Part shown: positions 28,825 through 50,489 of the stretch, one piece after another | How the letters are laid out: the number at the start of each line of letters is the position of its first letter | Position numbering within the stretch: the stretch's first letter is position 1 | Assembly (NCBI RefSeq): GCF_964355755.1 | Contig: NC_092671.1 | Coordinates: 2,170,001 to 2,234,000 of the forward strand | From: Antedon mediterranea | Lineage: Eukaryota; Animalia; Echinodermata | Length of the DNA stretch: 64,000 nucleotides | Direction: 5' to 3' | Notes under the pieces: generated by a model | Database searches by the model: none | The model's input: the letters and a program-made list of their open reading frames with translations, nothing else | Told to the model about the DNA's origin: nothing | Position numbers and translations under genes: made by a program

Positions 28825-30511
28825 ATTTGGTTTTTGACAAAACCCAAGCAGTATTTTACTTTAGACAATAATAACAAAAAGCACAATATATTAATTTATC
28901 ACTATTATAACTATTTATTAGACTCTATCATAAATTACAATTTAAAATTATTCAGTTTGAAAAAGTCTATCTATGAAATAAAGATGTCTACGTTGTATTT
29001 AGTGGCTTCATACTCCAGTACTATGATAATTACATTTAAGATTTTCACAGCAAATATCCAGATACAAGTTTTAAAAACTGATCAACGATTTGAATTGTTT
29101 AGTTTCAAATCAGATAAAAAGGTATAAAAATGTTACAAACGCTTTGGTTTTTAAAGAATTTTAAAATAAATTTTTAAGTAAGAACATGTATATTTTGGTA
29201 TGAATTATCTTTTTATGTACATTTAATTTGTTTGGAAGGATAGTTAACTAATATTTGAGTAAACAACTTAATCTGTGAATTGCCAGCTGTGGAGAATATC
29301 ATATCTGATATCTTAATTAAGCTAGTGTATAGTTATGACACGCCGTGTGTGCCAAAATCTTTATCTTAGTTAGACTATTCTGTAGGTTATATTCACCATT
29401 GAAGACCTATAGATAGTCAACAAAATATTAATTATTGTATTAAAGTAAATAAACAATCAATATCGAAACTTTTATAATTTCAAAAGTGTCTGCATGTAAT
29501 TTGCATATAATTTGTATAAAAGTGTACAATTAATTTATTAATCATCTGAATATATTAATAAATTTACTACATTACTCTATTTTATTCAAAGGTATACTTA
29601 ACACAAGGTTTAAATTAAACATAAATAATCTATAAAATATAATCAAATACTAGAGCTCTAAATATCATTTACTTTCGCCAAAAATGTTCAAGATTTCTTA
29701 ATTTTCGCATAAAATCTAAATCAAACGATTTTTCTTAATTGTATGCAGAAATCGAAAATCTAAACATTTTGTGCAAATTAATTTTTTGGAAATATCATAA
29801 AAAGAAAATAAAAAGCGGTGACAATAATATTAAAGGTTGTATTATTAATTGTTTCAGAAAGAGCTAAGAAAATTGCAATTTTATAAATATTGTTTAAATT
29901 ATTCATTATTAGAATAGTACTAAGTAGAAAACTATATATGCAGAAATAAACCATTATAGACACACACACATTAAAACAAGAAAATCACACTAATTTAAAT
30001 AAGATATGTAGCATTGAGCGAGTACTGCAAAGTTTTTACATCAAAATCTATATTATAAAATACTACAAATCAACTTACACTAAAACCTACTGTCCGAATT
30101 TCAGTACTTTTGTACAATTATTATTTAATGTTTAAAAAATACAAGATTTGTAAAATGTAACAATTAAAATGTTGTAAAATATATGTTTACTATTTTAAAA
30201 CATAACATTTTTGATTAATTTAATCAGTAAACTGAATAATTACTTCTTGCAGCGCCCCCAAACACCTAGAATTTTGCACTATTTATAAAAGTGATTATCA
30301 TAATTAAAATTAAGACAACAACGTGAAGGCATAGATTTACGTCACTAAAGAAAAAATTAATTACAAAAATGTATAGCCTTATGCGTGATTCTAAATATGT
30401 CAAATTAAGTTTTGCTGAAACTAGAAAATATCAACTTTCTTTTTAAGTATCTCAAATAGACTTGCTTAGAAAATACCCATTTTCTTTTTAAGTATCTCAA
30501 AATAGACTTGC

Positions 30512-30625
30512 TTAGAAAATACCCACTTTCTTTTTCAAATTGGCCTGTTTCCATTTTGGTATTCCCTTGAATTGTTTGTAGTCCATACCAAAGTTAGCCT
30601 TGAAGTCTGCATCCGATAAATACAG
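30512..30625 (-). CDS. VIL1/AVIL-like: villin last exon (headpiece): [37 protein letters not shown]
   Basis: tatag acceptor; headpiece F..FGM....F..P.WKQ..LKK..G.F; TAA at 30512-30514. Confidence 0.97.
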
Positions 30626-33600
30626 CTATAACCAAAAACACAAAATTAATAATATATATTAAATGCAGAAAAATGAGTAAAGGAAAATCTTGCAACTACA
30701 AGATTTCTTTTGGGAAAAGTTCAGTCTATTTTTTACAAATGCTCTCAAAACAGAACTCTCTAAGAAAAGGAAAAGATTTTACTTTGATTTTAATCCTTTA
30801 GTTTGACATAATGGTAAACAAAATTTGTTACTGTGTCTAAGATTGAACCCAACATTTTGGTAAAAAATGATTAAGTCTATGATTTCCATTCTTTAATTTC
30901 TGGAAATATTGCCTGCACAGCCAGTTGAATATTTCCATAACAAGGATTTATGCCAATATTCCAGATTGTCTCTTTCCGTGTATAGCATAGCATTCTTAAA
31001 TTGTAATTGTATAGTTCTTTTACCTCTTTCTTTGTTGGATCAACTCCGTCTGGTAATTCTTCTAGTTTCAATTGTTCTAATGGATAGTTATCTACTAAAC
31101 TTGGGTCATCCTCTTGTGGCTCAATTTTGAAATCAGCCTAAAGAAATCAAATATTCAATCAATTTATTTTCTCATTCCTGGTTACTTATTTATTATCGCT
31201 CACCAATCATGGAGTACTGTCGAACAAAATACAACTGTAAACAAAAGTTGACTAAGGTGTTTTGATATGCATCACTGAACAGACCAAACCAGTCATGGAT
31301 GTACAGTATTCAAATTAACTGTACAAAAGGTCGTTGACCAGATGTTGAAAATGCGATTAACAAAGTCAAACAAATAAGCAATAACAACTTTTTGAATTAT
31401 CTAATTTTTTAAAGATGTTTTGACCAAACCGTAATTTATACCTGTAATAAAAATTCTCCACCACCTCAACCTCTCCCTCAAACCTCCAAAAAAGTTTTTT
31501 TTATCATCGATTAAATTAAGACTAACAAATATTCTTAGCCTTAATAATGCAATTTAAAATGATAATGAAATGGTTGATTAATGGTTAATTAATGATTTAT
31601 GAAATCTATTTCACAGTTTACTAGCACACAATAACAGTATTATCTTGTATTATAAGTAAATCATAATAATCCCATTTATTCATGCAAATACAAAAATACA
31701 TAATATTAATAAGAAAAACTAAAGAGACAGACAGACAGGCTGACAGAGAGTAATAAACACTAACGCTTGGTTCCCACTAGGATGCAACATAAGTGATTTG
31801 AACAATCATGATGTGATGAGTTATCCAAATTGTCGCTTGTGATTGGTCAACTTACTTGCGTTGAGATCGAGTGGGAACAAAGCTTAAAACTTGTTTCTAA
31901 GCACACATTAAAACCAAATAAAAATTAGCAATTTCAGGAATGCTTAATAGCTGATGGTATTGTTTTTAACCAGTATTGGACTAGAACACCGGAAAAAAAT
32001 GGAAATCATAAGCAGGCACCAATAAAGCTCCCACTAGGATGCAAGGCAAGGAAGTTATTTGACCAATCACAAGTGATGAATTATTTGGACTGTCACTTGT
32101 CATTGTTCAACTCACATCTTCGCATTACCTCTCTAGTGCGAACCAACCCTTAGCTATAGTTTATGTACCCACCAACACACCAAACCGTGTTTACTTTAAA
32201 CTCATTATTGCCATTTAAAAGTGTTCATTATTATCAACACTGCAAACTTGTGTTAGATCCAAATCGTGCAAAACATTAGATATAAAGTGTAGTAAGGGTT
32301 AGGAGGGCTAGAGAACACAATGGGGTTTTAAATGTAAACATTATATCATACCTCAGTCTAAATCAGGATAATTACCAGCAAACATTGACAATGAAATCAG
32401 GGGTGAAGCAAATAAAAATGGTTAAGAATTGAGCAAGATTACCTCAAGTTGTCAATAACAAAACATTCAAAATCATAAAATAAAATGTTTTAATCAAAAG
32501 TAAAACAAAAATAACATATTAATATAAAATATTAAAAAATCAACAGCATAAAACAAATAAAAAATGGAAGTACTCTATTGTCAAGATGTGAAACACATTC
32601 TAAAATGCAAAATCCAAACATAACAAAAAATGATTATGATATAATGGATGACTATCGATTTATGACCTAGGCTCTACAACCTACGCATATTGTGTTGTTG
32701 GTTATTAATGTCCAGGCACAGAATACACAACAACTGTGTTGAGAAATCAAGTGAGAAAGCATGCTGCATTGTGGCTACATGCCTAGATGTGACTAGTGCT
32801 CAGCCTAGACGTGACTAGTGCGCAGCCTAGACGTGACTAGTGCTCAGCCTAGACATGACTAGGGCCTAGCCAAACGTGACTAGTGCCTAGCCTAGACGTG
32901 ACTAGTGCCCAGCCAAAACATGACTAGTGCTCAGCCTAGACATGACTAGTGCCCAGCCTAGACATGACTAGTGCCCAGCCAAAACATGACTAGTGCCCAG
33001 CCTAGATGTGACTAGTACTTAGCCAAAACGCGACTAGTGCTCAGCCTAGACGTGACTAGTGCCTAGCCTAGACATGACTAGTGCCTAGCCAAAACGTGAC
33101 TAGTGCCTAGCCACAACGTGACTCGTGCACAGCCTAGATGTGACTAGTGCCCAGCCTAGACGTGACCAGTGCCCAGCCTAGACGTGCCCAGCCTAGATGT
33201 GACTAGTTCTCTTTTGTGTGGACAGTAAATTAAAATATTATATCATTTTGATAGTTTCTGATTATCACCTCTTTTATGATATGCATATACTTACAAGTTT
33301 GGTAATGGTAACACCAGAGTTCTCTTGATTAAGTTGTTTTACTTTCTCCTCTAGAGATACCGATCCCTGGTAATGTAAAAAGAAATTAGTTAACAACATC
33401 TTGTTTATAAAAATGAAAGAAATACATGAAACCAAAATATGTTTTATGACAAAATAGCAGAATACATAGACAAATATCTTCTTAAGTTACATATAAAATA
33501 GATCTTATGAAATCTTCTTTCACACAAACCAGAAAATTGGCATTTGGTAACTGTTAGTATTTATGTCATTATTTGTCATGAAACAATAGAAAAACAACAA

Positions 33601-36600
33601 AAGTTATTAACATATTTGCAAAACACTCACCGCAAATAGATTATCATCCCAGGCCATAAAGTGACCTGTGAAATTGATTGGTTCATAGCCTTGTTTAACG
33701 GTAATCAACATGACAGAATCGTCTTTACGTCCACTTGGGTCTGTTTGGATGTATTCCCTTGCTGTTTTCATTATTTCTTTCTTTTCTGTTGCATTCGCTC
33801 CTTTTCCAACCCAAATAAAGAGCTGATAAAAAAAGAAATGAATAAATAAAAAATTGAAATTGAGTCAGTATGATGAACAAGTCTTGCAGTTACATATACC
33901 AAAAACCATGGTTCTGGTGGTAGAACAAGTCTTCTCGGATAAAGACTATACACAGTAGGCCTAGCTCATGTGATAGAACCTAGTACATCTTTCGAGATGA
34001 GTAGGGTTACCCCGTTGTACTAGTTCATACACAGCCATTGTCGTGAGTCAGATTAGTGGCCCTGATAAGCTACTGTTAGTACCCTATTTGTAGCGAACTA
34101 ATCCTCACACCATCGTGACTGGATATCATGTTGTGTGCAGCTGTGACTGACACACAATATAATCTAGTTTGTGGATACAATAAGAAAAAGATATACCACA
34201 ACTTTGAGAGCCGTTAATAATGATGAATCTGTATGTAACATAGATACTAAAGAGAAATAATACCTCATCATATGTGTCCAACATCATCACATCATCTTCA
34301 ATTAAATCGTCTTGGACAAAGTTAAAGATCTCTTCAACTTTGAAATTTCCTGATGCATTTGAGCACTGGAACAGTCTAGCTGGGTGGGTTGGCACCTCAT
34401 CCTAAACAATATCATTTACAATAATAAAAAATAAGTTTAAAATATAGCATTTTTATATATTGTAATTATGTAATCGTATGATTGTAAGTTTAATTTAGAA
34501 TGAGTTGTTATTCAAGACACTCTTCTAAAAGCAGACAATTTCAAATTCAGAAGTGGAGATTATAACAGCTAGTTTTCTCTTAACTTTTAACAAACACTAA
34601 CGCCCGTATTCTTAAACCGGACTTTAGTCGTAGTTCGAGCTAAAACTAAAAAAATGACGTCATTTTAATTCATAAACCGAACTTCAACTAACTCACCGAC
34701 TAAATCAGGCCAACCTCGACTAAATCGAGACGGATTTTGATTGATTTTTTTAGTCCTGGAAGGGGCAGGCTAAATGGTCGACTAAATGGTTTTTAAACGA
34801 TGTTTATAAAAAACGTAACAGTCATTGAGTTGTTATATTGGCCAGATATTGAAGAATGAAATATCTATATTTATATTAGCTTAATTAAATATACATTGGT
34901 ATAAGTTATAATAATGAAAATCCTCTTTATTTACAACTGTATACAAACTACATTATTTTCTTCGCGCAAGTCCGACTTGAGCTACGTCACGCCATAGCGA
35001 CAATGGGAGATGCGGCAATTCACCACGCGATGGAATGTTTAGGGGGCCTAGCGCTTTCTTGTCAGGCTATGAAGTGCGTGGTTCGTGGCGAGCATACTTT
35101 GTTGGGGGCCTAGAAAATATAAAAGTTACCGTACCGCCATGGTTCCTAAATATATTTTGAAGATTTTATTTGTTGTTAATCAAATATATACTTCACTGTT
35201 AAATTGATACTGATATTGTTCTAATAATTAACGATTAAAATTATTTTTCATGTATATAGTCCTGATGCGTAAAAAGTGTTGTAAGAAATGGAAAGTGATA
35301 TCAATGCGCAAAATTTCGTCTGCTCCTCAAATACTCTCTTGTCATTGGCCAATGTATAGCCTTTGTTACCCAGACGTGTGCAACTCGACTAAAAGCTCGA
35401 CTTCATTAAGTCGAACTGCAAACTTCGACTACTTCGTTTTTGAATCGAATTTGAAGTAATAGCTCGAACTACGACTTTTTCAAGTCGAACTTCGAACTAC
35501 GACTAAAGTCCGGTTTAAGAATACGGGCGTAAGAAGAATTTTAAAACATAGCTTATTTTATTTCATCTATTCGTCTAAAAAAGGACAGTACAAAGGTACA
35601 ATAAAATAAACGGGTAGACAGGGATAACTAAAAGTAAACTAAATCACTCGAAAACAATATATTTTAAAGACTTACACCAAACACTTTCTCAGAAGCGTAA
35701 GCACTCTTTCCTCCTAGAATATTCCAGAAGGCAGCTGGCTCCTGCCCTTCTGGTACCATAGTGAAATCACCACTAAAAAGAGAAATTCACATGAAATAAA
35801 TGACAATGTTTTCTACAATAACAGATGAATAAAAATTAATTTTTGAAGAAATGCGTTTCATTTTACTTTACAAACATTATTGATACCAATTGCTAAAATT
35901 ATTTAAATGATCTTCAACCACCAAAACAAAATAAACGGGATGAATGATACATGATTTTACTTAATTAAAACAAAAATAAAACCTTACACTGGAGAAATAG
36001 TTTTTGCAATATTCTTAGACAACTGTCGTTCATCTCCGCTTCCTCCCTAAAAAAACAGAAACATTATAATTAAACATACAACAGAGCATCAAAATAACAG
36101 CAATTGTTAAATAAGATATTAAAATAAACAATAAAAAACCTGATAAAATAGGTAAATAAAGACGAGGTAGCCAAATAATGTTGTCTTACCTTTCCACACC
36201 AGAGGAAGACTTGTTTATTACTTTGAACAACAAATATATCATTTGAGTTGAGTGACGAAGCCTTGGCTGGTACCTAAAAAGAGTGATAAACAAACAACTG
36301 CATTGAGTGGCAATGACTAATGTATGTTCACACAGACAGAGTTCTGGTGTATTACCATATGAATCTGATCGCAAGGTAACATAAACCACAGATAAAAAAA
36401 AACGAGGCTTTTCAGCCAATGGAAGTATCATCCTTCATGACATCATCATAGAAAACATTGTGATTGGATACAATGCTCAATTACATCAACGTCTTGCATT
36501 AAAAGGTACACTAGCCCATTTTTCACTGAAATAGTCTGTGTGACCCTTCCAACAATGTATGCTTGTTCAATAATTACAGAACCATATAGTGGACAAGAAA

Positions 36601-39600
36601 TGGCATTATGCAATGCAATAATGATGACATCATAATAATACCTCAACAGCACGAGTGTTGAACTCATTTGTTCCTTTAACTTGGAATACTCGAGTTCCAC
36701 CTGAAAAACTTTTGTCCTTTTCTGAAGAGTTTTTGAAACCACTTGCCTTGCCACCCTAAAACAAAAACAATATTGGTCAAAATAAATGCGAATTAGACTC
36801 ATTTCTTATAGTGTTAGTTGTATTGAGAATATAGATATTGCATAATGGTAAAGCCGGTTTTCTACTAGGACGCAACGCAAGGAAATAAGCCTAATGCAAG
36901 TGAATTGACCAATCACAAGCGAAAATTCAGATAATACATCACTTGTGATTGATAAATTGCTCACGTCGCTTTACGTCCTAGTCATGCGTTGGTAATAAAG
37001 TGAACAACTTGGCTATTTTTATGGCGTTAACTGCTCTACTATTAGTCACATGACACTATCTACTGTGCCATATATATGTTTTTTAACTCTCTTTGCTTCG
37101 TCCTTTGGATGGGATGTAAAGTCATTACTGTGTACATACAGTGAACTTTGTACACTATTCAAAATTAAGGGATCGTCTCTTAGTGAGCTAATCTTGTAGA
37201 TGCTGCACTGTTGCTGTAGAGGGCCTAATCTGAATTTCTTTACTTTCCAGTTAAGGTTGAGGATGATAATAATTACATTTATACATTTACATAAATATTA
37301 ATAGTTGATAGTCATGCCTAAAAACAACTGATGACGACTGAATCATGCTACTAAAGTCATAACATTCCAATTGTACAATAACATAATCCTTAATTAAAAA
37401 AAAAAAAATATTATTACTGTTATTTTTACTAGTAAAAAAAAACACCAAATAATTAAATGATATGTACAGTATGTATACTATCACCCAAACCTAAAAACAA
37501 CCCATGGTTCAACCCAAATCTTTAAATAATCTGATCAGCTCAGATAAAGTATACCACTTTTAATGTTTAATGTAATGATATGTAATTTAAATATTACTAA
37601 TAAACACATTTAAATCATATTTAGATTAGTAGAAAATAATAATAATCAGAAATGAATTACATGCTTCATTAGAATTAGTAAATTAAATCATATTTTTAAA
37701 TTTTTTAAATATAATGTTAACCATATAACATTAAACCATTTAATTTACCTCAATAATCATATCTTCTCTAATATGTTTAGCAAAAATTAAATTTATTAAA
37801 AAAATTTATAATATGTTTCAATCATTTTTTTCTTATTCTAGGATATACATTTTGAAATAACCTTCTAGAAATTAATTAATCAGATAATATCAAAGTTATG
37901 ATTATTATCAAAGAAAAATTTGGATTGAAATTGTACAATGTATCATGGGAAGTTCTAACACACAAACAATTCTAGGAGCAATCGGTATGAAATAACAAAC
38001 CATAAAACCACTATTTCTATATCAAACTTGTTAGTGGTGTTTGTGGAAAGGGCAAGTTGAAAAAAGGGTAGTAGCAGAAGGGAAAGTTAAAGAAAGAAGA
38101 CATTATATAAAGGGAAAGGTAAAGAAAGAAAAACTTTTAAAAAGGAAAGTTAAAGAAAAGAGAAGTTATAGAAAGGAGAAGATACAGAAAGGAGAAGATA
38201 CAGAAAGGAGAAGTTACAGAAAGGAGAAGTTACAGAAAGGAGAAGTTACAGAAAGGAGAAGTTACAGAAAGGAGAAGTTACAGAAAGGAGAAGTTACAGA
38301 AAGGAGAAGTTACAGAAAGGAGAAGTTATAGAAAGGAGAAGTTACAGAAAGGAGAAGTTACAGAAAGGAGAAGTTACAGAAAGGAGAAGTTACAGAAAGG
38401 AGAAGATACAGAAAGGAGAAGATACAGAAAGGAGAAGATACAGAAAGGAGAAGTTACAGAAAGGAGAAGTTACAGAAAGGAGAAGTTACAGAAAGGAGAA
38501 GTTACAGAAAGGAGAAGTTACAGAAAGGAGAAGTTACAGAAAGGAGAAGTTACAGAAAGAAGAAGTTACAGAAAGGAGAAGTTACAGAAAGGAGAAGTTA
38601 CAGAAAGGAGAAGTTATAGAAAGGAGAAGTTACAGAAAGGAGAAGTTACAGAAAGGAGAAGTTACAGAAAGGAGAAGTTACAGAAAAGAGAAGTTATAGA
38701 AAGGAGAAGATACAGAAAGGAGAAGTTACAGAAAGGAGAAGTTACAGAAAGGAGAAGTTATAGAAAGGAGAAGTTACAGAAAGGAGAAGTTACAGAAAGG
38801 AGAAGTTACAGAAAGGAGAAGTTACAGAAAGGAGAAGTTATAGAAAGGAGAAGTTACAGAAAGGAGAAGTTACAGAAAGGAGAAGTTACAGAAAGGAGAA
38901 GTTACAGAAAGTAAAGGTTATATAGAAAGAAAAAGTTATAGAAGGGAAAAAAATACAGGGATAGTTGAAGAAAGAGAAGGTTGCAAAAGGGTGTAGTGAA
39001 ACAGTAGTGACAGAAAGTAAGTGCAGAAAAGAGTTGCAGAAAGAAGGAGAGAAGAAGTACCTTATGTATGATAAGTTTACCCTTGAATAGAGAACAGAAA
39101 TGTGGAGGTTCTTTACCCATCTGGCATCGAACCTAGAAAATTTAATTTCTGAATGATAAGAAAAAGATCAAAATAAGAAAATGCTGCACGAATCTGTGAA
39201 TGGTGAACAGAAACCGTATCTTGTAAAAATAGTTTTGATTTTAATCGAGAAAATTATATCGGGCTGTTTGAATTATGGTATTTATTTGGAATGAGAAAAG
39301 ATTTTTTAACGGACAGAATTAAACTGCAAAGAAATTAAGCAGTACTGTAGCCTATTGTAAGATTAAACAAGACAAAGCTTCTAATCACCATTACAGAGGG
39401 CAGCAGACAAGTGACAGCAGACGCCTTACCTTGTGGATGACTAACTTTCCTTTGAAGATTTGTAAGAAATGATTTGGTTCTTTACCTTGTACTACACGGA
39501 TCTAAATAACATGCAAGCACGCACGGCAAAAAACATCGAACATTATTTGGGTATCAAGTTCGAAAACATATAGATGAAGAGAATATAATATTGATACATA

Positions 39601-42600
39601 CAATTCTATTCGATATTTGGTCATAAATCATAACATTATAAATTGTTATCAGATTCTAGAATTTAGATCAAATAAAGTATAATATCTTGTTTTGGATAAC
39701 TGAATTATTTTCCTAATGCGGACAATCGCATTTATCATATTTCCAAATTTGAAATATCTTACAAAAAGCATATAAAAAGCTATTGTTCAAAAAATCAAAA
39801 GGAATAAAAAAATATTATTGATTGATTAGTTTAATTTCTGTGTTGCAATCGTTACCTGTACTGGGGCACCACCATACTTATCATCAAGCTCAGTGGATTT
39901 AAGAGCTGCTGTTCCTGATTCATCTTTTGAAGATTCACGACCCTGTTAAATGATAACTACACACATTAGTACAAAATGCAATAATAGCTATCTAGGATAG
40001 ACACGGTGGAACTTGTAGCAGGCATTTATGCACATATTCTATCAAATTTATAACAAAATATTGGGTATAACATACCAGCCAGTAGTAGATGATGTATTGT
40101 TCACGACTTCGCTGGCGATATGTATATAAAATAACGTAAGAGTCTCCGCCAAAAAACTGACCATACAGCTGCTTCTCAAGTGGTACCAAATCGAAGTTCT
40201 CAACACGCCAGATCTGAAGGGAAAAAGTTAAAATAAATTAGTTATTCATCAAAATGTTCTGCGCATTCAGATGAAGTTTCTATAGCTCTTTCAATATGTT
40301 TACCTCTTTAGTAGTGTACCTCATTTGATTGCTTGGTAATTTTGTACATACATGACTGCACTGATATGAGCATAATATTTGTCCTTTGTTGCATGCCATG
40401 AATAAATTTTACCTAGCACCTACCTAGTATCAATTTATATCAGTAAATCCCTGTCCACACTATCAACAAAATGTGATGTGCCCATATATGGACATGATCA
40501 CTACCATATTTCGGCACAACTAGTTTGATAGTGTAGAGAGAGCTTTAGACCAACTTATTAAACATCACAGACTTAACTTGCTATGTATCATTTAAAAAAA
40601 AGATTACCTCAATCTTTCCGTCACCAGCATCAAACATTTTCAACTGTGCAGCCATTGAGGGGTCGGCTTCAAGGTCAGAGGTCTTGACCTGGTGAAGGGT
40701 GCTGGCATCAAACTTCTTTTGTTGAACACGGGCTGCAATTTGAAAAAAACTTTTCGTTAAACAATAAAACATTTAAATAGTAATTAATTTAAATACAACA
40801 GAATTATTTATGCCCATTCAGATTTAATTATTAACTGTGAAATGAAATAAAATAAATTACCAACTCCTCTTCCAACGGTGAACGTCTTTCCAGGTCCGCT
40901 CACATCTCCTTTATCACGCCAATTCTTAAAGATGGCTTTGAATTGAGCTGGCTCACCGTTTTCTATCACTGTGGTTACTGGGGTGTGAGGTGGGTATTTC
41001 TTTGCCTTGATAAAACCCTATAGTGATGGTATGGGTAACAAACTATAAAGTTAATTATTTTATCACAATCAATTTGAGAATTATTGACAATTTAACATTA
41101 AATTATTATTAAAATAAATGCTTACAAATTCAAGAATGTAAAAAATACAAATGACAAAAATGTGCACATCAAGAAAAAAAACAAAAGAAAAATGAACCAA
41201 ATATTTACCAGTTAAATCTGAAACTAAATCAATGACTAAATACATTACAAAAATATACAGAATAACTAATATATAAATAAAAACAAATTAGTCTACTACT
41301 TAAAAACATGAGAAAGTAACATTTATACACAAAACAAAGTTTATCATTGTGAAACCTAAATAAAATCTTATATATAAACTTATATTAAGCTCTGTCTAAA
41401 CAATCAAACTTTATGTGACATAAAAATGTAATGTGCCCATATATGGACATAACATATTTGGGCATATCACCACCATATTTGGGGATATCACACTTTTTTT
41501 TGTCAAACTAGTTTGATAGTGTAGATACAATGTATGGTATTTGAAGTCTATGTACTCTATACTTAGTTCATAATATGTGTATTATAATTTATTTACGTAG
41601 TAACTATTTTTATAATTGTGCTTAACTAATACCCCTACTAATTTCATATACCCAGATACTTACCTTTATTCTACATACAAACCATTGGCAAGTGGAAGGT
41701 TCAAAGGTCATAGTTCACAGCGAAATATCATGTCTTTTCAAAATTTCTTACAGAATTTCACCAAAAGGGTAAATTAGGAAATTGCATGACGGAAATGAAT
41801 AAGAGAAGGTGAAGAAAACAGAGAAAATGTGAATGAATTTTTGTTTTGATGTATGGAAATTTAATGAGAATAAATAGTGGTATTTAAAATGATTGATGCA
41901 TTTGTTATTAAAAAAAAAATGTAAAGTATTATTTTTTTGCGCAAGCAATTTAAAAATTTACACAAAAATTTATATTCAGATTTCTGCACAATATTATTAT
42001 GTAAAATTATTAGAATTAGTAAAAACGTTCCAATATTAGAAATATTGTAGTATTAGGAGAAACAGCGGGATTGTTACCAAAATAGATAAATATTAAATAA
42101 AAATAAAATAAATAAATATTCTGTATTATGCATAAAGTTATTAATACAATATTAAAGGTACCATTCTTTGTGGGGTTGCTGTTATAGTATGCAAAATTAT
42201 GAATTTTTATTTTACCAAAATTAGTAATTACTAGTTCCTGATATATGTTTATATTATAAATATTACAATAATACATATTATGTGACTTAACAAAAATGTA
42301 TAATGCTGTGAAGTGATTAGCTTGTAAAAGAATTTAGTGAGTAGTGGATAAGTAGTGAATACGGAAGGAAGAGTAGAAAAGAACAGTTGTTTGTTTAGCA
42401 TATGATTAGCATTAAATAATATATATATATATATATATATTTATTTAGAGTAAAGATTTCATGCAGGTAAAAGGTAGTCTTTAAGCAATTATTTAGATAT
42501 TTTATTATTTCACATCATGCAGCTGATTTTTAAGACTTTAGTTGCAAGATAAGATTGTAATTGTTAGTATCTCTGGTAAAGTTGTAGGCAGGGAGTTTCA

Positions 42601-45600
42601 TAACGATACCATGTTCCTTTTCTTAATACTCTTGTGAAAATAGTGGGTACAAAAATGGTACATATAAAGGCATCTTTAAAATGTCCCATAGTTGGGCTAA
42701 GATGAGGTGTGTGGGTTTTTGGTTAGCGCACCCCTTTGTTTACAGTCAAGATCTTCCGTTAGTCCATGCATAAAATTCTCTGCCTAGATTACAGATCAGT
42801 CTGCTACACTTCATTATTGAAACCATTACCAGGTCTTGTAGATAGAGTGTTAATATTTGTAATAAACCTAGCATTTTGTTAATCAACCTCAACAACTTCT
42901 AGTGTAAAGGTACTTAAACTACATACTAAGCACTTCATGCATAGTTACTTAATAGAAAGCATGTGTGCTTATTTTTTTTAATATTAGCACAATATAAGCA
43001 ATCTAACATAAGAAATAAAAATGCAAGTAATTGCCTGAAATTATAAATGGTTAGTACAGAAATTAAAATAAAATGTTATCATATTAATGATGCTTAAATT
43101 AATTTGTTAAAAAAAAAAATAAAAATAATGGATAGATAACATACAAAGTTCACTTCAAGCCATGCAAAAAACAAACAAAAACAAAAGCAAAAAATATGAT
43201 AAATATGACAATAGATAATAATACAATAAAGTACAGATCTCTTGCAAATTAAAACAGAGACCGGTTAAAAAAAGGTTTGATACAAAATAAAAAACAAGGA
43301 ATGAAGTAAAAATAAATATATGTAGGCATAGCAAAATTAGAGGGAAACCATATCACATCTGTTTCTGTTTAGGGTGCACAAACCGGGTATATGAAATCAT
43401 AAATACCCAAGACTGGAATAATATTGGTGAAAAAACATCTACAAAAATAGTAAAAATTCTACAGTAACAGAATTGATCAGCATTAAAATAAAAAGCTCAG
43501 ATGCGATATGTTTGGTATAAAATGTGCCCAATACCAACTACAAACACGTTTAGCATTCCATTTATTAATCAGAGAGCAAGCAAAAAATAAAAATAGCAAC
43601 TAAACAATATCAATGGAACTAATTTACTCAAATCGAACTATTAAAATGACAAAAATTTGCATATGAAACTACAAATATTGTGCAAAGAAAATGAAGATAA
43701 AACAAGGAGTTGGCGACAAGAAGTTAAAAAAAAGACATGGATATAAGGTCATGAACTTTGACCTAGGGTTACATGGAGACAACAGCAGAGCAAAAATGCA
43801 ATAAGGCAGAAAGTTGTTTAGTTTAATGAATTTTACAAATTTGGTTTATTTTGAAACATTATACCAGAGTTTCATAAACATATAAATAAACTGACAATTG
43901 CTATAGCAAGTAATTTATGAAAACTAGGCAAAACAGTAAATTTTAAAAACAAAATTGTGTTACAAATTGTCCATTTCTGCCAAATTGATTCAAGTGCAAC
44001 AACTGATGTGAAAGAACTTTAAGCACGCCGTGGAATAGAATTAGCATTGGGAACTTTACCAAGGCGTTCTTGAAAGCCCTATCTCTCTCGTTTTTTGTCG
44101 CCCCCTTTCCCTTCCACACAAAAATTCCGGATTGACCTTGATCAACGATGAAACAATCCTGCAATGATAAATTGTTAAGTATTACACAAATTATATTATA
44201 GTGTATGGGTAATACCACTGCCTCGGAGGGTGTTATTTGCTGAGTTGTGTGCTCCCTCAGAGAGGAAATGCCTTTTATGGTTTATCCAGGTAAGCCAGGC
44301 ACAAAATGGACTAAATATATTATACTATAATGCATGGATGATACCACTGTTTTGGAGTGGGAGTTACTACTTTTTGAGTCAAGTGCTCCTCAGAGTAAAA
44401 AGACCTATGTGGTTTATCCAGATAAGCTAGGCACAAAATAGACTATACTACACTCTGACAATGGATTAAACTGACAATTTCTATCAATATATTCTTTTGG
44501 TGGTCAATTTAACAACACAATAGTAATATGTTCTTTCTTTTTACATTGAATTATGTTTTGCATATCGGATTTAATAACTGTAACAATAGTAATAAAATAT
44601 GGTCTTTCTTTTTCAATCATACCACACTTTCACATATAGGATGGTAAAAACAAATGAAGCTGATTACATTCCATTTTGACAAGAAAGACAGACAAACCTT
44701 AGAATCTAGTGAACTCTGGTTGAGTGGTGGAGCTCCAATTTCAGTGACCACCAGGGATCCAGACTCATCAGTCACCCTTAAAAAAAACAATGTAATGTTT
44801 ATTGTTAATTGTTAATATAATGTTAACATTTTTCTCTGTCTTGAAACGTAAGATAAATTGATACTGGTTTACAATTAATGAACTACTTATCGATAATTAA
44901 TGTATGTAACTGTCTACATGGTAATACAATCAAAATTTATATAAAAATCAATGGCAAACATTTTCGTTTATTCCTGTCAAATTGATATATAAAATAAAGA
45001 AACAAATGGGCTTTTACTTATTCAATTTATTTAAAAATTATGATTAGGGATGTCAAACAATTTTGTTTTGAATACACTAAAACATTCATCATGAAACTGT
45101 CAGATGAGTTCTGGTTATTTTTTTAATAAAAGCAAATGAAAAATTTTCACAAATTATCAGGAAAGCTCTTCTTAACCTAACTTTCTATATAGAAAAACAT
45201 TAATATAAATCGTTATATAAGATATTATTTAAAAATAAATTTTAAGCATGTACTTACTTGTAGAGCTTTGTGTTGGCTTGAAGTTTTCTTGAGAACTTCT
45301 CATCATCACCTCCTGCTGTAGCTGGGGCAACAGACCCTTTCTGACCCCCTAGGGCGGCTAAGGCCACCGGGTTAACGTCCTTCACAGCACCGTTTAGGAC
45401 CTCTATATGTGCTCTGCCTCCCCTCTCATCATCTCGGATACTCTGGGCTACCTCTATACCCTGTCAATTTATATCATTCAGTTTATTGATATATTTTAAT
45501 AATACAGTCAACTCTCCTAATACTGAGAGCCTTTGGCTGGCATAATATATATGGTTTTTCAAAAAATCTTGTATCCTAAGTGGCTTTTATATTGCAGCCG

Positions 45601-48600
45601 GATTCGTTCCAGCGCCTCGAGAAAAATATTGCGGGGGCTGACATGCTTTCACATCAAGCACGAATTTCGTTATCAGATGTCAATTGAGGTCATTCATGCT
45701 CACTGTTGAACTTTACCACTGAACCCATTTTCTACAATATTTGTTTTGGACCAAATCTGACCGCAATGTGAAAGCAGCATAAATGTGTTTTTAATTGTAA
45801 AATAGAAGTTTAGACCTCAAAATACAGATTCCTACATTTGAACAGTTAAAATTAATTAATTAATTAATTAATTAATTAGTTTCTTTTATATCACTTACAG
45901 TTCAATTTTTGTCTGTGTGTGTCAATATTATATTATCAAATGTCAGTACATATATTTTTACTTTAAACATTTAATTAAAAATACTTTTCTGATAACGAAA
46001 CAATAGAAAGTGTGATGTAGAGAAATGACTCATATATAGATTATACCTTCATCTTCTCCATCCTGTTGCTATCTGTTCCATGCCATACAAAGATTTGTTG
46101 GCCTAGATCTAGAATAAAGACGTCACCTTGATTCAGGGATGCCCACTCCAACGCAACCTGCAAACAAAATAGTAACTTATTATGCCAAAGACAACCCTTA
46201 AAAACACTACCTATTTTTATATTTGTAAGAGGTTGTGGTGCAGTTTGTTGGACTTTGGACTACTGATCATGAGATCGTGGGTTCGAATTCAATGCTTGTT
46301 TCTTAGGCAAGACACTTTACTTACGTTTGCCTATCCCAAACCAGGTGTACAAATTATGGGAGTATGTTTCCATACGTGTTTGATCCAAAAATGACCAGGG
46401 TAATAATGACCAGGGTAATAATGACCAGGGTAATAATATGTAGAGTACAGCTCTTAGAGATTTCACAACATTAGGTGCTTTTTAAATCCAGAACATTATC
46501 AAATATTATCCTAAACATATTTTTGAGTGATTTAAAAAATTTCTCCTTACTGGAATAACACGAACGTTCCTTTTTCCTTTCACTTTCAGAAGTCGCTTCT
46601 CAAATTTGTTTCGATCAACTGTTTTGAATCCGGACTTAATGCCTCCAGTTTGGTACCTAAATTTAAAAAACAAATAAATAAAATATTTCAATTAAATCTG
46701 AAATTTAATAATTTATTTAAAATAAAAAAAAAGGTATAGGTACTTACCGGATTCCCTTCTTAAAGTACGAGACAAAGAGTTGACTTTCATGTTCTTGCAC
46801 TTCTCGATGTTGGACAGGGCTCCCTCCAAGCTGGTCATCCAACTCAACTGTCTTGTATGCTGCAACTCCTGCCTCATCCTGGTAAGATTAGAAAAAAGCC
46901 GCTCTTGAATATGATTGAACCATCCTCATACGGAAAAAATGGTAAGGTGGTTGGCCCATGTAATCATAAAAATCCAAACCCTCATACGCCTCTACTTTAT
47001 ACAGTATTATAAGCACTATTTCACTCTTTTCTCTTTTAATAGTCTCATATACAAAACATAAGTTAAGTGTAAACAAATAAATAAAATAAAACTTGAAACA
47101 TTTGAAGGTCTTACTTACATTAGAAGTTTCACGTCCAAGCCAAAAATGAATATTCCAATCAAAACCATTTCCGACCTTGCGAGTCTATAAAATAAAGAAA
47201 ATTATTACATACTTAAGTTACTAATAACTCATAATCAATTGTTCATACATTAATAAGTGAATTGTAAAAATGTATTTAGTATTTATCAAGGCAGAAAAAT
47301 GGGATAAAATAGTAATACAGTAGCTAATTGAATGTAACCCAAAAGTGTGTATGATGAGGATTTAATGTTGACAACTTTAAGACTGCTTTCATGTGGAAAT
47401 TGTATTAAATATTTGGAGAAAAAAACCTGAGTTTGGATTGGCAATTTATATGTATTTTAATTGCAGCTGAATGGAAGTGTCTGTTGCTAGATGAGTGATT
47501 ATAAATGACAAACAGAAGGCAGGTGTCATCGACTATTGCTTTCTACGTCGTCGTTTAAAATACTACTCATAGATTAAAATATTTACATTCTGTTTTCAAC
47601 CAATATTTCTTTAAAAACACATTTCTGTAAAGGCACTTCTCTGCTCCGGCACGGTTCTGGTTCGGCGAATGTGCAAGCAATATCTAGACCATGTCCTGTT
47701 TGCTAGTTATTTGAACAGCAATAAATCCATCGCTAGTGGGTACATCATTGTGAAATTTAATTTAATTTTTATTTTATTTAATCGAAACCAACAGCGATAA
47801 TTACCGCCACTAACAGGTTTGATACAAACAAAGCCAGGACTGTTTAAAGCACCTTGATTGGTCCTAACATTGATCAAGGGCTTCTCTCGTCCAGTGCCCA
47901 CCTTGACCAGAGGTCTGAGGCAGATACTAGATGCAGGGGCTGCCATAAGAGTCAGCAGTGCTGATTTCAAATGCCTAACGGGACCCCAGCTCCGTATACA
48001 GCACCCGTTATTCCCAGATGGTCTCCCATCCAAGCTCTAACCAGGCCCAACGTCGCTTAACTTCGGTGATCTGACGAGAACCGGTGTTTCAACGTGGTAA
48101 AGCCGTATTCAACGTGGTAAAGCCGTATAAATATTTTCCCTTTAAATACCAATCTAAGGCTGCTATATGGACTGGATACACATGTAATTCTATTTGAGCA
48201 CTCATTACAATATGGAAAAAATCTCATAGGGAGCGTTTATTAGAAACAATACAGTATTTCAATATTAAATGCATTTAAATATTGAGACACTGTTAAGCAG
48301 ATGTATGATGAATAGTTATATAGGCATGCACGGCACCCAACTCAAAGTCTAATAGTAAAAGGATAGTCGATTGACACGCCAATTAATATTGGCTGTTAGA
48401 AATGTTTACATACCACCTACACAGCCACAAACTACTGGTGATGAAATGTAGGATAGATCTCACTGCTAGAAAATTGTCAATAAATTGAACCCAATTACTG
48501 ATTTATTATGTGACTCTTTATCAATTACCTTGCCCAAAATAGGCGTGTATGTTTAGTCTAGTCACAGCAGTGACCGTATGTAAATTTGATTAAGCACAAA

Positions 48601-49866
48601 CTGGGGTATACTCCCACAGTAAGCCCACACTGGTGTATAAGTCTACACTGGTAGATAAGCTCAAACTGGTACAGTATATAATATAACTCTACACTGATGA
48701 ATATGCCCACGCTGATGTATAAGCCCATGCTTGTATATAAGCCAATGCTGGTGAATAAGCCCACGTTGGTGTATAAGCCCAAGCTGGTGAATAAGCCCAC
48801 GCTGGTGTATAAGCCCACGCTGGTGTATAAGCTTACACTGGTATATAAGCCCATGCTGGTGAATAAGCCCATGCTGATGTATAAGCCCAGGCTGGTGTAT
48901 AAGCCCACGTTTGTGTATAAGCCCACGTTTGTGTATAAGCCCATGCTTGTATAAGCCAACGCTGGTGAATAAGCCAATGCTTGTATATAAGCCCACGCTG
49001 GTGTATATGCCTATGCTGGTGCATAAGCCCACGCTGGTATATAAACCCATGCTGGTGTATAAGCCCACGTTGGTGTATAAGCCCATGCTGGTATATAAGC
49101 CTACACTGGTATATAATAAGCCCACACTGGTTGATAAGCCATCGTGTTGAATAATAAATGAGTAGGTACTCAAAGGCTGGCAGATACTTTATTCGTTAGT
49201 CAACATGAGCCAAAGAACATAACTATCCCAGTGAAGAATAATCAAAGTACACTGTGCTACTAGGAAATGAGATTGTGTATTGTATAATAAATAATGTACG
49301 CCCAATAAATTAAATAAAACAAACAACTAGAGCAGTTATAATTTGCTCTATATATACCTCTAACTGTACACAATATACTTCATCAACCATGGATATCAAT
49401 TCAATGGGGTTGACAAGGCCACAAGACATTATCAAATTCTAACAATTTACTGTAGTACAGTACTACAACGGTCAACTCTCCCAATACAGGCCACCTTTGG
49501 GCTGGCCTAAAATATCGGGTTTTTCAAAAAGTCTGGTATTCTGAATGTGTTTCTAATGGTAAAATGAATTTGGTACTTTTTGGACCTCAAGGAAAGTCTG
49601 GTTTTTGGAGATTTTCCTGTTTTCAGAGAGTTTGGTATTGGTAGAGTTGACTCAGACTAATATTATACTTTTAAGATTTCAATAATATGCGTTGATTTCT
49701 TTAATGACTATTTACTCACATGAAGGACAATGTAAGAATCTCCTTGGAAGAAGTGACCATAATCTTTCTCTGGCCAACTCACAACTTTCATGTTCTCAAT
49801 CCTCCAGATCTTAATACCTTCTTTCCTGCCTGCATCCCTAAATGCTGGATCAATTTGCAAAGCCAT
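30512..49866 (-). CDS. VIL1/AVIL-like: Villin/advillin-like actin-binding protein (6 gelsolin repeats + villin headpiece), complete, 22 coding exons using one of two alternative exon-13 copies, 834 aa
   Basis: ATG in perfect Kozak context GCCACCATGG at 49866. All exons join in frame through GT-AG introns. Motifs [47 protein letters not shown], and headpiece [11 protein letters not shown]...[16 protein letters not shown]. Confidence 0.97.
31024..31137 (-). CDS. VIL1/AVIL-like: villin exon 21: [38 protein letters not shown]
   Basis: tttag / gtaaaa, 114 nt, headpiece N-subdomain. Confidence 0.95.
32352..32357 (-). CDS. VIL1/AVIL-like: candidate 6-nt villin microexon ACTGAG (Thr-Glu) in the G6-headpiece linker
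   Basis: minus strand ...tgtttgctggtaattatcctgatttag|ACTGAG|gtatga; phase 0-0; about 80-nt AG-free upstream zone. Confidence 0.55.
32780..33207. repeat. 22-bp minisatellite (gcctagacgtgactagtgccca)n
   Basis: About 19 tandem copies in villin intron 20. Confidence 0.95.
33295..33366 (-). CDS. VIL1/AVIL-like: villin exon 20 (linker): [24 protein letters not shown]
   Basis: accag / gtaagt, 72 nt. Confidence 0.9.
33631..33822 (-). CDS. VIL1/AVIL-like: villin exon 19: [64 protein letters not shown]
   Basis: atcag / gtgagt, 192 nt. Confidence 0.96.
34264..34401 (-). CDS. VIL1/AVIL-like: villin exon 18: [46 protein letters not shown]
   Basis: tttag / gtatta, 138 nt. Confidence 0.96.
34601..35529. 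mobile_element. PIF/Harbinger-type non-autonomous element, 929 bp
   Basis: TIR CGCCCGTATTCTTAAACCGGACTTTAGTCGTAGTTCGA at both ends; TAA target duplication at 34598-34600 and 35530-35532. Confidence 0.92.
35676..35772 (-). CDS. VIL1/AVIL-like: villin exon 17: [32 protein letters not shown]
   Basis: tttag / gtaagt, 97 nt. Confidence 0.95.
35988..36046 (-). CDS. VIL1/AVIL-like: villin exon 16: [20 protein letters not shown]
   Basis: tttag / gtaagg, 59 nt, ends phase 2. Confidence 0.93.
36190..36273 (-). CDS. VIL1/AVIL-like: villin exon 15: [28 protein letters not shown]
   Basis: tttag / gtaaga, 84 nt. Confidence 0.96.
36642..36755 (-). CDS. VIL1/AVIL-like: villin exon 14: [38 protein letters not shown]
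   Basis: tttag / gtatta, 114 nt. Confidence 0.95.
38160..38910. repeat. 16-bp purine/pyrimidine-skewed minisatellite (agaaaggagaagttac)n, about 46 copies
   Basis: Direct tandem repetition with degenerate flanks to about 38040 and 39058. Confidence 0.97.
39061..39132 (-). CDS. VIL1/AVIL-like: villin exon 13b (alternative copy): [24 protein letters not shown]
   Basis: ttctag / AAG|gtactt, 72 nt, phase 0-0, homologous to 13a. Confidence 0.9.
39430..39501 (-). CDS. VIL1/AVIL-like: villin exon 13a (alternative copy): [24 protein letters not shown]
   Basis: tttag / AAG|gtaagg, 72 nt, phase 0-0. Confidence 0.93.
39856..39942 (-). CDS. VIL1/AVIL-like: villin exon 12: [29 protein letters not shown]
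   Basis: aacag / gtaacg, 87 nt. Confidence 0.96.
40076..40213 (-). CDS. VIL1/AVIL-like: villin exon 11: [46 protein letters not shown]
   Basis: ttcag / gtatgt, 138 nt. Confidence 0.96.
40608..40732 (-). CDS. VIL1/AVIL-like: villin exon 10: [42 protein letters not shown]
   Basis: tgcag / gtaatc, 125 nt. Confidence 0.95.
40861..41017 (-). CDS. VIL1/AVIL-like: villin exon 9: [52 protein letters not shown]
   Basis: tatag / gtaatt, 157 nt. Confidence 0.96.
44060..44158 (-). CDS. VIL1/AVIL-like: villin exon 8: [33 protein letters not shown]
   Basis: tgcag / gtaaag, 99 nt. Confidence 0.96.
44698..44776 (-). CDS. VIL1/AVIL-like: villin exon 7: [26 protein letters not shown]
   Basis: taag / gtttgt, 79 nt. 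Confidence 0.93.
45258..45460 (-). CDS. VIL1/AVIL-like: villin exon 6: [22 protein letters not shown]...KLYK
   Basis: acag / gtaagt, 203 nt. Confidence 0.95.
46047..46157 (-). CDS. VIL1/AVIL-like: villin exon 5: [37 protein letters not shown]
   Basis: tgcag / gtataa, 111 nt. Confidence 0.96.
46228..46500 (+). mobile_element. tRNA-derived SINE, second family, degenerate
   Basis: tggtgcagt...gggttcgaattc B-box, ttaggcaagacactt core, AT-rich tail. Confidence 0.65.
46551..46656 (-). CDS. VIL1/AVIL-like: villin exon 4: [35 protein letters not shown]
   Basis: tttag / gtaagg, 106 nt. Confidence 0.96.
46748..46878 (-). CDS. VIL1/AVIL-like: villin exon 3: [44 protein letters not shown]
   Basis: ccag / gtaagt, 131 nt, ends phase 2. 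Confidence 0.96.
47119..47184 (-). CDS. VIL1/AVIL-like: villin exon 2: [22 protein letters not shown]
   Basis: tatag / gtaagt, 66 nt. Confidence 0.95.
47820..48127 (-). mobile_element. 5S rRNA-derived SINE (SINE3-like) or 5S pseudogene fused to a non-5S body
   Basis: 47997-48107 minus reads tacggctttaccacgttgaaacaccggttctcgtcagatcaccgaagttaagcgacgttgggcctggttagagcttggatgggagaccatctgggaataacgggtgctgta (5S-like). No oligo-T terminator follows; a GC-richer body continues. Confidence 0.8.
48620..49140. repeat. 18-bp minisatellite (tataagcccacgctggtg)n
   Basis: Tandem copies; source of the ORFs at 48558-49173. Confidence 0.95.
49470..49653. mobile_element. pogo-like MITE (related copies near 45505 and 50680-50850)
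   Basis: gtcaactctcccaatac...gtattggtagagttgac inverted termini. Confidence 0.6.
49720..49866 (-). CDS. VIL1/AVIL-like: villin coding exon 1: [49 protein letters not shown] (exon extends to acceptor at 49897)
   Basis: cttcag acceptor before 49897, Kozak ATG, CAT|gtgagt donor. Confidence 0.95.
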
Positions 49867-50311: not shown

Positions 50312-50489
50312 GCGTGGTTCCCACTAGCGACGCAACGCAAGGACGTAACGCAACGCAAGTGAATTTACCAATCACAAGCGATGGCTTATTCGCTTGTGAT
50401 TGCTAACTGTCTATAACTTCGCTTGTCATTGGTTAAAACGCTTGCGTTGCGTTTACGTCCTTGCGTTACGTTCTAGTGGGAACCAAGCT
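50312..50489. mobile_element. MITE family with TIR GCTTGGTTCCCACTAG (other copies 31764-31885, 32027-32151, 36852-36981)
   Basis: Inverted termini and internal acgcaacgcaag/ttgcgttgcgt symmetry. Confidence 0.85.

What the first reader, a model, noticed from the sequence alone, without database searches (positions are those of the whole stretch)
39061..39501. Duplicated, probably mutually exclusive exon pair in villin domain G4: a gelsolin-type versus villin-type switch
Seen: two 72-nt, phase 0-0 exons 297 nt apart, each with intact AG/GT sites, encode the same G4 segment: 13a [24 protein letters not shown] and 13b [24 protein letters not shown]. Codons have diverged while GKEP.HF...FKGKL.IHK is kept, which suggests both copies are old and under selection. 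Including both would duplicate a core segment of the gelsolin fold, so mutually exclusive splicing is inferred. From recalled sequences, 13a resembles gelsolin ([10 protein letters not shown]) and 13b resembles vertebrate villin-1 (RVPMGKEPPH); 13b also adds two Cys. Inference: one gene may make gelsolin-like and villin-like G4 variants, a choice that separate paralogs may have fixed elsewhere.
Basis: partly seen in the sequence, partly recalled or inferred. Interest (0 to 1): 0.85.

Follow-up and report, generated by a model that had tools for sequence, protein, structure and literature searches.

The report
Ancient swappable exon in feather-star villin
A feather-star gene for the actin-binding protein villin splices in one or the other of two old copies of a 24-residue exon, a choice that acorn-worm villins also show at the same place, and it likely fine-tunes domain 4 rather than switching the protein between gelsolin and villin.

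Summary
Both 72-nt exons exist in tandem on the minus strand (39501-39430, 39132-39061). Contigs of one RNA run show 12-13a-14 and 12-13b-14 and no 13a-13b joint. My two gene models equal RefSeq Antedon mediterranea advillin-like X1 and X2, so the isoforms are already annotated. The same pair occurs in a second crinoid family. What seems unreported is that isoform pairs of three hemichordate genera differ only inside the same 24 residues, while 13 named sea urchin, star, cucumber and brittle-star species show one, 13a-like, version. A crinoid-only duplication is rejected in most tests, so the pair likely predates living echinoderms and may be shared by all Ambulacraria. The 'gelsolin-type versus villin-type' label is not supported as a function. 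Both isoforms keep the headpiece. 13a is the ancestral villin state, scores better against villins than gelsolins, and lacks the proline insertion of gelsolins. The idea that paralogs later fixed one exon each is not excluded, because chordate gelsolin nests among chordate villins, but it rests on one residue (Q/M) that recurs elsewhere. Verdict: a new, old member of a known kind.

The parts
39430..39501 (-). Exon 13a, 72 nt, residues 484-507 of isoform A (RefSeq X1); Q-type, ancestral villin-like version
   Evidence: (joint to exon 12 depth 93.5, loose end = exon 14 start)
39061..39132 (-). Exon 13b, 72 nt, residues 484-507 of isoform B (RefSeq X2); M-type version
   Evidence: (joint to exon 12 depth 50.9, loose end = exon 14 start)
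39133..39429 (-). 297-nt intron between the two copies; 11 internal AG dinucleotides, so no AG-exclusion zone of the distant-branch-point type
39856..39942 (-). Constitutive exon 12 (residues 455-483), carries the long helix of G4 shared by both isoforms
36642..36755 (-). Constitutive exon 14 (residues 508-545)
   Evidence: loose ends of both RNA contigs match 36729-36754
30509..49866 (-). Whole coding span of the villin/advillin-like gene: six gelsolin repeats and a headpiece, 22 coding exons per isoform (stop codon near 30512)
39400..39426 (-). Weak candidate pairing element just behind the 13a donor (unproven)
   Evidence: not significant against real-sequence controls
37022..37066 (-). Weak candidate docking site in intron 13b-14 (unproven)

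Best explanation
This crinoid villin gene splices either exon 13a or exon 13b between exons 12 and 14, giving two complete 834-residue villins that differ at 9 positions at the end of domain 4, and the swap likely tunes the stability or calcium response of that domain rather than the kind of activity. Shown: both junction paths in one RNA run, both isoforms in RefSeq for two crinoid families, and two versions of the same 24 residues in three hemichordate genera. Predicted: the exon encodes the last core strand (482-487), the short helix (493-497) and the final strand (503-506) of G4. The long actin-binding helix (460-476) and the headpiece are shared. By alignment the final strand is gelsolin's G4:G5 interface strand, and it is nearly unchanged, so the differences sit in the strand and short helix before it. 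Inferred: the duplication predates the split of crinoids from other living echinoderms, most simply once in the ambulacrarian stem (about 45%), and other echinoderms kept only the 13a type. Inferred: both-included and both-skipped frames stay open, so decay cannot enforce the exclusivity; an active mechanism (competing RNA pairing or a splicing factor) would have to.
For: run X1 contigs: joints 12-13a (depth 93.5) and 12-13b (50.9), both 129-nt contigs ending in the first 26 nt of exon 14 (placed); no 13a-13b joint and no loose end at exon 12; DNA run X4 shows no joint; models equal Antedon X1/X2; Anneissia X1/X2 carry the same pair; isoform pairs of Antedon, Anneissia, Ptychodera, Glandiceps and Saccoglossus differ by 9, 7, 10, 8 and 9 substitutions, all within 484-507; Ptychodera differs at both end residues; 35 of 38 other-echinoderm sequences cover the segment, all Q-type, one version per species. 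AU tests reject a crinoid-only duplication: p 0.014, 0.008, 0.044 and 0.036, 0.030, 0.002. Free exon trees join 13b with the hemichordate P version (SH-aLRT/UFBoot 77/89; 77/78). Structure: (mean pLDDT 77.9). PMC12674126 section 22: V4 grips actin through its long helix. PMC13013752 passages: gelsolin strand 517-520 forms the G4:G5 interface, and a destabilising variant there (E553K) severs actin without calcium.
Against: The RNA evidence is one run, kept as contigs, which drop rare variants. Its RNA label is the tool's guess, though GT-AG joints absent from the DNA run show splicing. The 12-13a joint has 30 letters on its short side and the exon-14 ends have 26, under the tool's 31-letter bar for bridging. 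RefSeq Antedon models may rest on the same data. Hemichordate and Anneissia evidence is predicted proteins only; I saw no DNA. Absence in other echinoderms is absence from annotated isoforms in 90% clusters. The trees rest on 24 sites: single and independent origins are not separated (trees 1 and 2 both kept), and without site 5 the crinoid-only tree is rejected under one of two models (p 0.061, 0.014). The whole-protein tree did not recover Ambulacraria. No tissue data and no biochemistry.
Confidence: 0.72

Rival explanations
1. The exon pair arose in the deuterostome stem. A later chordate gene duplication split it: gelsolin/scinderin kept the Q exon and villin/advillin kept the M exon. Crinoids would keep the ancestral two-in-one gene.
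For: Chordate gelsolins and scinderins nest with chordate villins in the whole-protein tree without exon 13 (SH-aLRT 100, quick search), and both lack the same residues after the exon. 115 of 119 gelsolin-type hits have Q at position 5; all 9 aligned chordate villins have M. This tree scored best of 10 under all three models. Splitting of homologous exons between paralogs has precedent: 11 events in PMC4494069 (abstract).
Against: Site 5 alone gives 12.3 lnL of a total advantage of 5.4. Without it the tree is rejected under LG (p 0.019) or kept weakly (0.129, LG+C10), and the best tree puts gelsolin with the hemichordate P version, the opposite pairing. Q is the ancestral state. M recurs in 12 of 21 unnamed M-bearing representatives that lack the chordate deletion. 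Both hemichordate versions have M. No second version was seen among 13 Branchiostoma, 3 Ciona and 2 Clavelina cluster members.
Confidence: 0.15
2. The same exon was duplicated twice independently, once in the echinoderm stem (or in crinoids) and once in acorn worms, because a symmetric 72-nt exon at the end of G4 is an easy and useful target.
For: The independent echinoderm-stem tree is not rejected (p 0.22-0.24 under two models and 0.07 under the third; 0.23, 0.16, 0.063). Cross-phylum identities are flat at 14-17 of 24 for all pairings. PMC9741552's supplement lists same-region convergent events as a category (head row seen).
Against: 13b and the hemichordate P version share the M-G-K-E-P-P-H motif and group in free trees with moderate support. 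The crinoid-only form is rejected in 7 of 8 tests.
Confidence: 0.35
3. The two exons are nearly neutral alternatives: both are kept because each must fold, and the choice has no regulated function.
For: The G4:G5 strand is almost the same in both. The actin-binding helix is shared. Thirteen other echinoderm species appear to manage with one version. No regulatory RNA structure passed controls.
Against: Each version keeps its own residues across families: 23/24 and 22/24 in crinoids, 19-22/24 within each hemichordate type, against 14-16/24 between the two versions of one species. A redundant copy would be expected to decay over that time (inference).
Confidence: 0.12

Closest known systems
Tandem duplicated, mutually exclusive homologous exons (e.g. 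alpha-actinin ACTN1/2/4; PMC9741552, PMC4494069)
   Same: Tandem homologous exons of equal length, frame-preserving, old, with conservative changes, in an actin-binding gene. PMC9741552 lists actin binding as enriched (passage).
   Different: Villin, gelsolin, VIL1 and GSN have 0 hits in that paper's main text. VIL1, GSN, AVIL, SCIN and VILL have 0 hits in the 15,271 characters of supplement held. That study covers human, fly and worm, not ambulacrarians.
RefSeq advillin-like X1/X2 of Antedon mediterranea and Anneissia japonica
   Same: The Antedon pair is identical to my two models; the Anneissia pair differs in the same segment.
   Different: Automatic annotation only; no comparison or interpretation attached.
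Paralvinella sulfincola villin (PDB 9JUS; PMC12674126)
   Same: Six gelsolin domains plus headpiece; best sequence and fold match (E 3.9e-223; Foldseek rank 1); best PDB match of 13a.
   Different: One Q-type segment in the solved chain; no isoform choice in the sections I read.
Chordate gelsolin and scinderin
   Same: Same G4 fold and Q at exon position 5; nested with chordate villins.
   Different: No headpiece; the segment is 25 aa with a Pro insertion that neither crinoid exon has.
Drosophila serpent exon 4.1/4.2 competing RNA pairing (PMC4691838)
   Same: There, pairing between the middle and the downstream intron is required for the first exon (section 7); my candidate duplex has that geometry.
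   Different: Here the duplex is not significant against real-sequence controls and its conservation could not be tested.

Membership tests
Mutually exclusive tandem homologous exons | Two homologous exons in tandem, same length and phase, intact splice sites | tested here: met
Mutually exclusive tandem homologous exons | Each exon is spliced between the same flanking exons | tested here: met
   (one run, contigs; short overhangs of 26-32 nt); RefSeq X1/X2
Mutually exclusive tandem homologous exons | Co-inclusion and skipping absent or rare | tested here: inconclusive
   No 13a-13b joint or skip seen, but contigs drop rare forms; none of the 5 crinoid RefSeq isoforms has both or neither
Mutually exclusive tandem homologous exons | Both copies conserved in other species | tested here: met
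   Protein isoforms of Anneissia and three hemichordates; genomic exons not seen
Mutually exclusive tandem homologous exons | Tissue- or stage-regulated choice (common, not required) | not testable with these tools
   Only one RNA-like run among 5 listed
Villin/advillin | Six gelsolin repeats plus a C-terminal headpiece | tested here: met
   Pfam PF00626 x6 and PF02209 at 799-834 in both isoforms
Villin/advillin | Bundles, severs and caps actin under calcium control | not testable with these tools
   needs biochemistry
Gelsolin/scinderin (for isoform A) | No headpiece | tested here: not met
Gelsolin/scinderin (for exon 13a) | 25-residue segment with Pro insertion; closer to gelsolins than to villins | tested here: not met
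Exon pair split between paralogs after gene duplication | Each paralog's exon groups with a different ancestral exon copy | tested here: inconclusive
   best tree with site 5, loses without it
Docking/selector RNA-pairing control | Strong, conserved competing duplexes | tested here: inconclusive
   0 of 25 shuffles but 4 of 45 real stretches pair as well; conservation not testable
Steric or distant-branch-point exclusion | Very short intron, or branch point near the 5' site with a long AG-free zone | tested here: not met
   297-nt intron, 11 internal AGs, AG-free zone 14 nt

The most novel reading that the evidence does not exclude
[quoted passage not shown] Crinoids still splice both. Chordates duplicated the gene and fixed the Q exon in gelsolin/scinderin and the M exon in villin/advillin, so the feather-star gene is a living record of the step from splice variants to the gelsolin and villin paralogs.
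Probability: 0.15. Interest if true: 0.72.

Novelty: new member of a known kind. Interest (0 to 1): 0.42.

Why it matters
Old homologous exon swaps are among the splice events most likely to matter, and my searches found none described in the villin/gelsolin family. One seen in both crinoids and acorn worms marks the last 24 residues of G4 as a tunable site. It gives a natural pair of full-length villins differing at 7-10 residues for testing what sets G4 stability and calcium response. If the stronger reading holds, it ties the origin of vertebrate gelsolin and villin to the sorting of two splice forms.

Tried and rejected
1. No whole genome is held for this window, and a metagenome scan with an ambulacrarian alignment found no relative (181 pattern matches, none confirmed). 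Genomic exons and introns of other species were therefore not seen.
2. No listed holder is on record as RNA; X1 was a guess. The first read-laying was swamped by dispersed repeats in its joint tables; the narrower one was informative.
3. The single-sequence structure model was unusable (pLDDT 35) and was redone with a 93-sequence alignment.
4. One search misaligned the vertebrate gelsolins onto the wrong repeats. Its tree, its vertebrate-gelsolin score and its tallies were discarded and redone.
5. RNA pairing. A duplex 39426-39400 x 37066-37022 (-29.7 kcal/mol) beat 25 of 25 dinucleotide shuffles. It ranks only fourth among distinct sites in the window, 4 of 45 real stretches pair as well or better, and 2 of the 16 other intron pairs had no equal among 20 controls. 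A second element behind 13b pairs with the same site at -18.7 (rank 100 of 6368). Kept as a weak lead. Local folds of the two exons with flanks are unremarkable (z 0.70 and -0.95).
6. Distant-branch-point or steric exclusion was not supported; PMC7969005 seen as a search listing only.
7. Decay as the enforcer was rejected because all four combinations keep an open frame.
8. A conserved two-cysteine feature was rejected: C486 is shared with Anneissia, C496 is Ser there.
9. Literature: villin + mutually exclusive exons + gelsolin gave 2 unrelated papers; searches gave 0; none of the 15 listed of 26 mentions villin. The library lacks most subscription journals.
10. The gelsolin preprint 10.64898/2026.10.16.759396 (passages) did not resolve which strands pair; its supplements are closed.
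11. Earlier-findings look-ups returned nothing.

Full report
Observation. The two exons lie on the minus strand at 39501-39430 (13a) and 39132-39061 (13b). Each is 72 nt, AG/GT and phase 0-0, and they are 297 nt apart. They share 41 of 72 nt and 15 of 24 residues; 8 of the 15 shared residues use different codons, and ML estimates are dN 0.47 and dS 2.7. The flanking introns are not alike. Single DNA contigs of four runs span both copies (X2, X3, X5; X4), so the tandem is real. X4's four substitutions and one 3-nt deletion all fall outside the two exons.

The gene. Twenty-two coding exons from 49866 to about 30512 give an open 834-residue frame with either exon; including both (858) or neither (810) also stays open. 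Both isoforms have six gelsolin repeats and a headpiece. The two models are letter for letter RefSeq Antedon mediterranea advillin-like X1 and X2, a feather star of the family Antedonidae. The isoforms are therefore already annotated automatically.

Splicing. In run X1, 4 contigs lie on 38945-40400. One joins exon 12 to 13a (depth 93.5), one joins exon 12 to 13b (50.9), and both end in the same 26 nt, which map to the start of exon 14. No 13a-13b joint and no skip is listed, and DNA run X4 shows no joint. The limits are one run, contigs that drop rare forms, overhangs of 26-32 nt against the tool's bar of 31, and depth as a poor measure of level. The roughly 65:35 ratio is only indicative.

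Conservation. Anneissia japonica (Comatulidae) has the same pair: 23/24 and 22/24 identical, against 89.9% elsewhere. Isoform pairs of Ptychodera, Glandiceps and Saccoglossus differ by 10, 8 and 9 substitutions, all inside residues 484-507, with the rest identical. One hemichordate version has Cys in place of the first Pro (C type); the other has the M-G-K-E-P-P-H motif of 13b (P type). Of 38 sequences from other echinoderms, 35 cover the segment; all are Q-type, with one version per species across 13 named species. None of the 10 outgroup clusters opened showed two versions within one gene. This is evidence from predicted proteins, not from genomes.

Age. AU tests on the 24 columns reject a crinoid-only duplication under three models in each of two taxon sets (p 0.008-0.044; 0.002-0.036), and under one of two models once site 5 is removed (0.061, 0.014). 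13a is closest to the single exon of other echinoderms (17.9 of 24 on average, against 14.9 for 13b). Free trees join 13b with the hemichordate P type at moderate support. One ambulacrarian origin and two independent origins are not separated. Tests on 24 sites with fixed topologies are weak, so my odds are judgement: about 45% single ambulacrarian origin, 35% independent, 15% deuterostome origin with later sorting.

The gelsolin-versus-villin label. The recalled motifs are right, and 13b's best PDB match is human villin-1. But 13a's best match is a worm villin, and it scores higher against chordate villins than vertebrate gelsolins. Q at position 5 is the state of 68 of 120 villin-type hits, including sponge, cnidarian and Capsaspora proteins. 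Gelsolin-type segments are 25 residues in 116 of 119 hits, with a Pro insertion in all 11 aligned examples; both crinoid exons are 24 like all 120 villin-type hits. So 13a is the ancestral villin state, and neither isoform is a gelsolin.

The paralog idea deserves a fair hearing. With exon 13 removed, chordate gelsolins and scinderins nest with chordate villins (SH-aLRT 100, quick search, 43 rows), although that tree fails to recover Ambulacraria. A tree in which gelsolin takes the Q exon and villin the M exon scores best of 10. That lead comes from site 5 alone (12.3 lnL against a total of 5.4); without the site the tree is rejected under LG and the opposite pairing is best. M also recurs in 12 unnamed representatives that lack the chordate deletion. 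The idea stays open at low odds; PMC4494069 (abstract) shows that such sorting happens.

How it likely works. In the alignment-based model the exon covers strand 482-487, a turn, helix 493-497 and strand 503-506; the long helix 460-476 is in exon 12. In the solved worm villin-actin complex V4 binds actin through its long helix and a type I calcium (PMC12674126, sections 6 and 22), so the main actin contact is shared. From recall, the G4 calcium ligands also lie in the flanking exons. By alignment strand 503-506 is gelsolin 517-520, which pairs with G5; variants at this interface destabilise the protein and one severs without calcium (PMC13013752, passages). That strand is nearly the same in both exons, and 8 of the 9 differences lie in residues 484-498. 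I infer a change in packing or surface of the strand and short helix that shifts G4 stability, calcium threshold or a partner contact. This step is untested.

What enforces the choice is unresolved. Decay cannot, and the intron lacks the marks of steric or distant-branch-point control. A candidate duplex between the intron start behind 13a and a site in intron 13b-14 has the geometry shown for Drosophila serpent (PMC4691838, abstract and section 7), but it failed real-sequence controls. Competing pairing or a tissue splicing factor remain the likely options.

Novelty. The class is well known. I found no description in the villin/gelsolin family (searches; PMC9741552 main-text passages and the part of its supplement held); subscription papers and unseen supplements could hold one. 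Verdict: a real, expressed, old mutually exclusive exon pair, shared or paralleled in acorn worms; a new member of a known kind; interest 0.42.

Noticed in passing
window 32352-32357 (- strand): A 6-nt AG/GT microexon candidate encoding Thr-Glu in the G6-headpiece linker. It matches the two extra residues of Anneissia X1/X2 but is absent from Antedon RefSeq X1/X2. Other echinoderms have 4-10 residue optional inserts at the same place.
   Followed up: partly
window 41018-44059 (intron 8): Run X1 has contigs across much of this intron at depth 8-15, and a strong-looking donor sits near 41663. Could be pre-mRNA, an alternative end or an internal exon; tblastn shows no duplicated exon there.
   Followed up: partly
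window 47993-48110 (- strand): Full-length 5S rRNA match (85.5 bits) inside intron 1, on the gene's strand, high-copy in DNA runs: likely a dispersed 5S copy or 5S-derived repeat.
   Followed up: partly
window 38075-38911: An 837-nt purine-rich tandem array starts about 150 nt behind the 13b donor and reads as a long pyrimidine tract on the transcript; any effect on exon choice is unknown.
   Followed up: no
proteins: Tunicate and vertebrate gelsolins/scinderins group inside the chordate villin clade and share a deletion after this exon, suggesting that chordate gelsolin arose from villin by headpiece loss. Searches found no paper on this in the library; it may be known.
   Followed up: partly
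window 36864-36982, with similar motifs near 50320-50480 and 31780-32140: Short inverted-repeat elements, likely non-autonomous transposons; further high-copy repeats near 40464-40520 and 41390-41527.
   Followed up: no
window 30422-30535: A 46-nt unit repeated 2.5 times overlaps the stop codon and the start of the 3' UTR.
   Followed up: no
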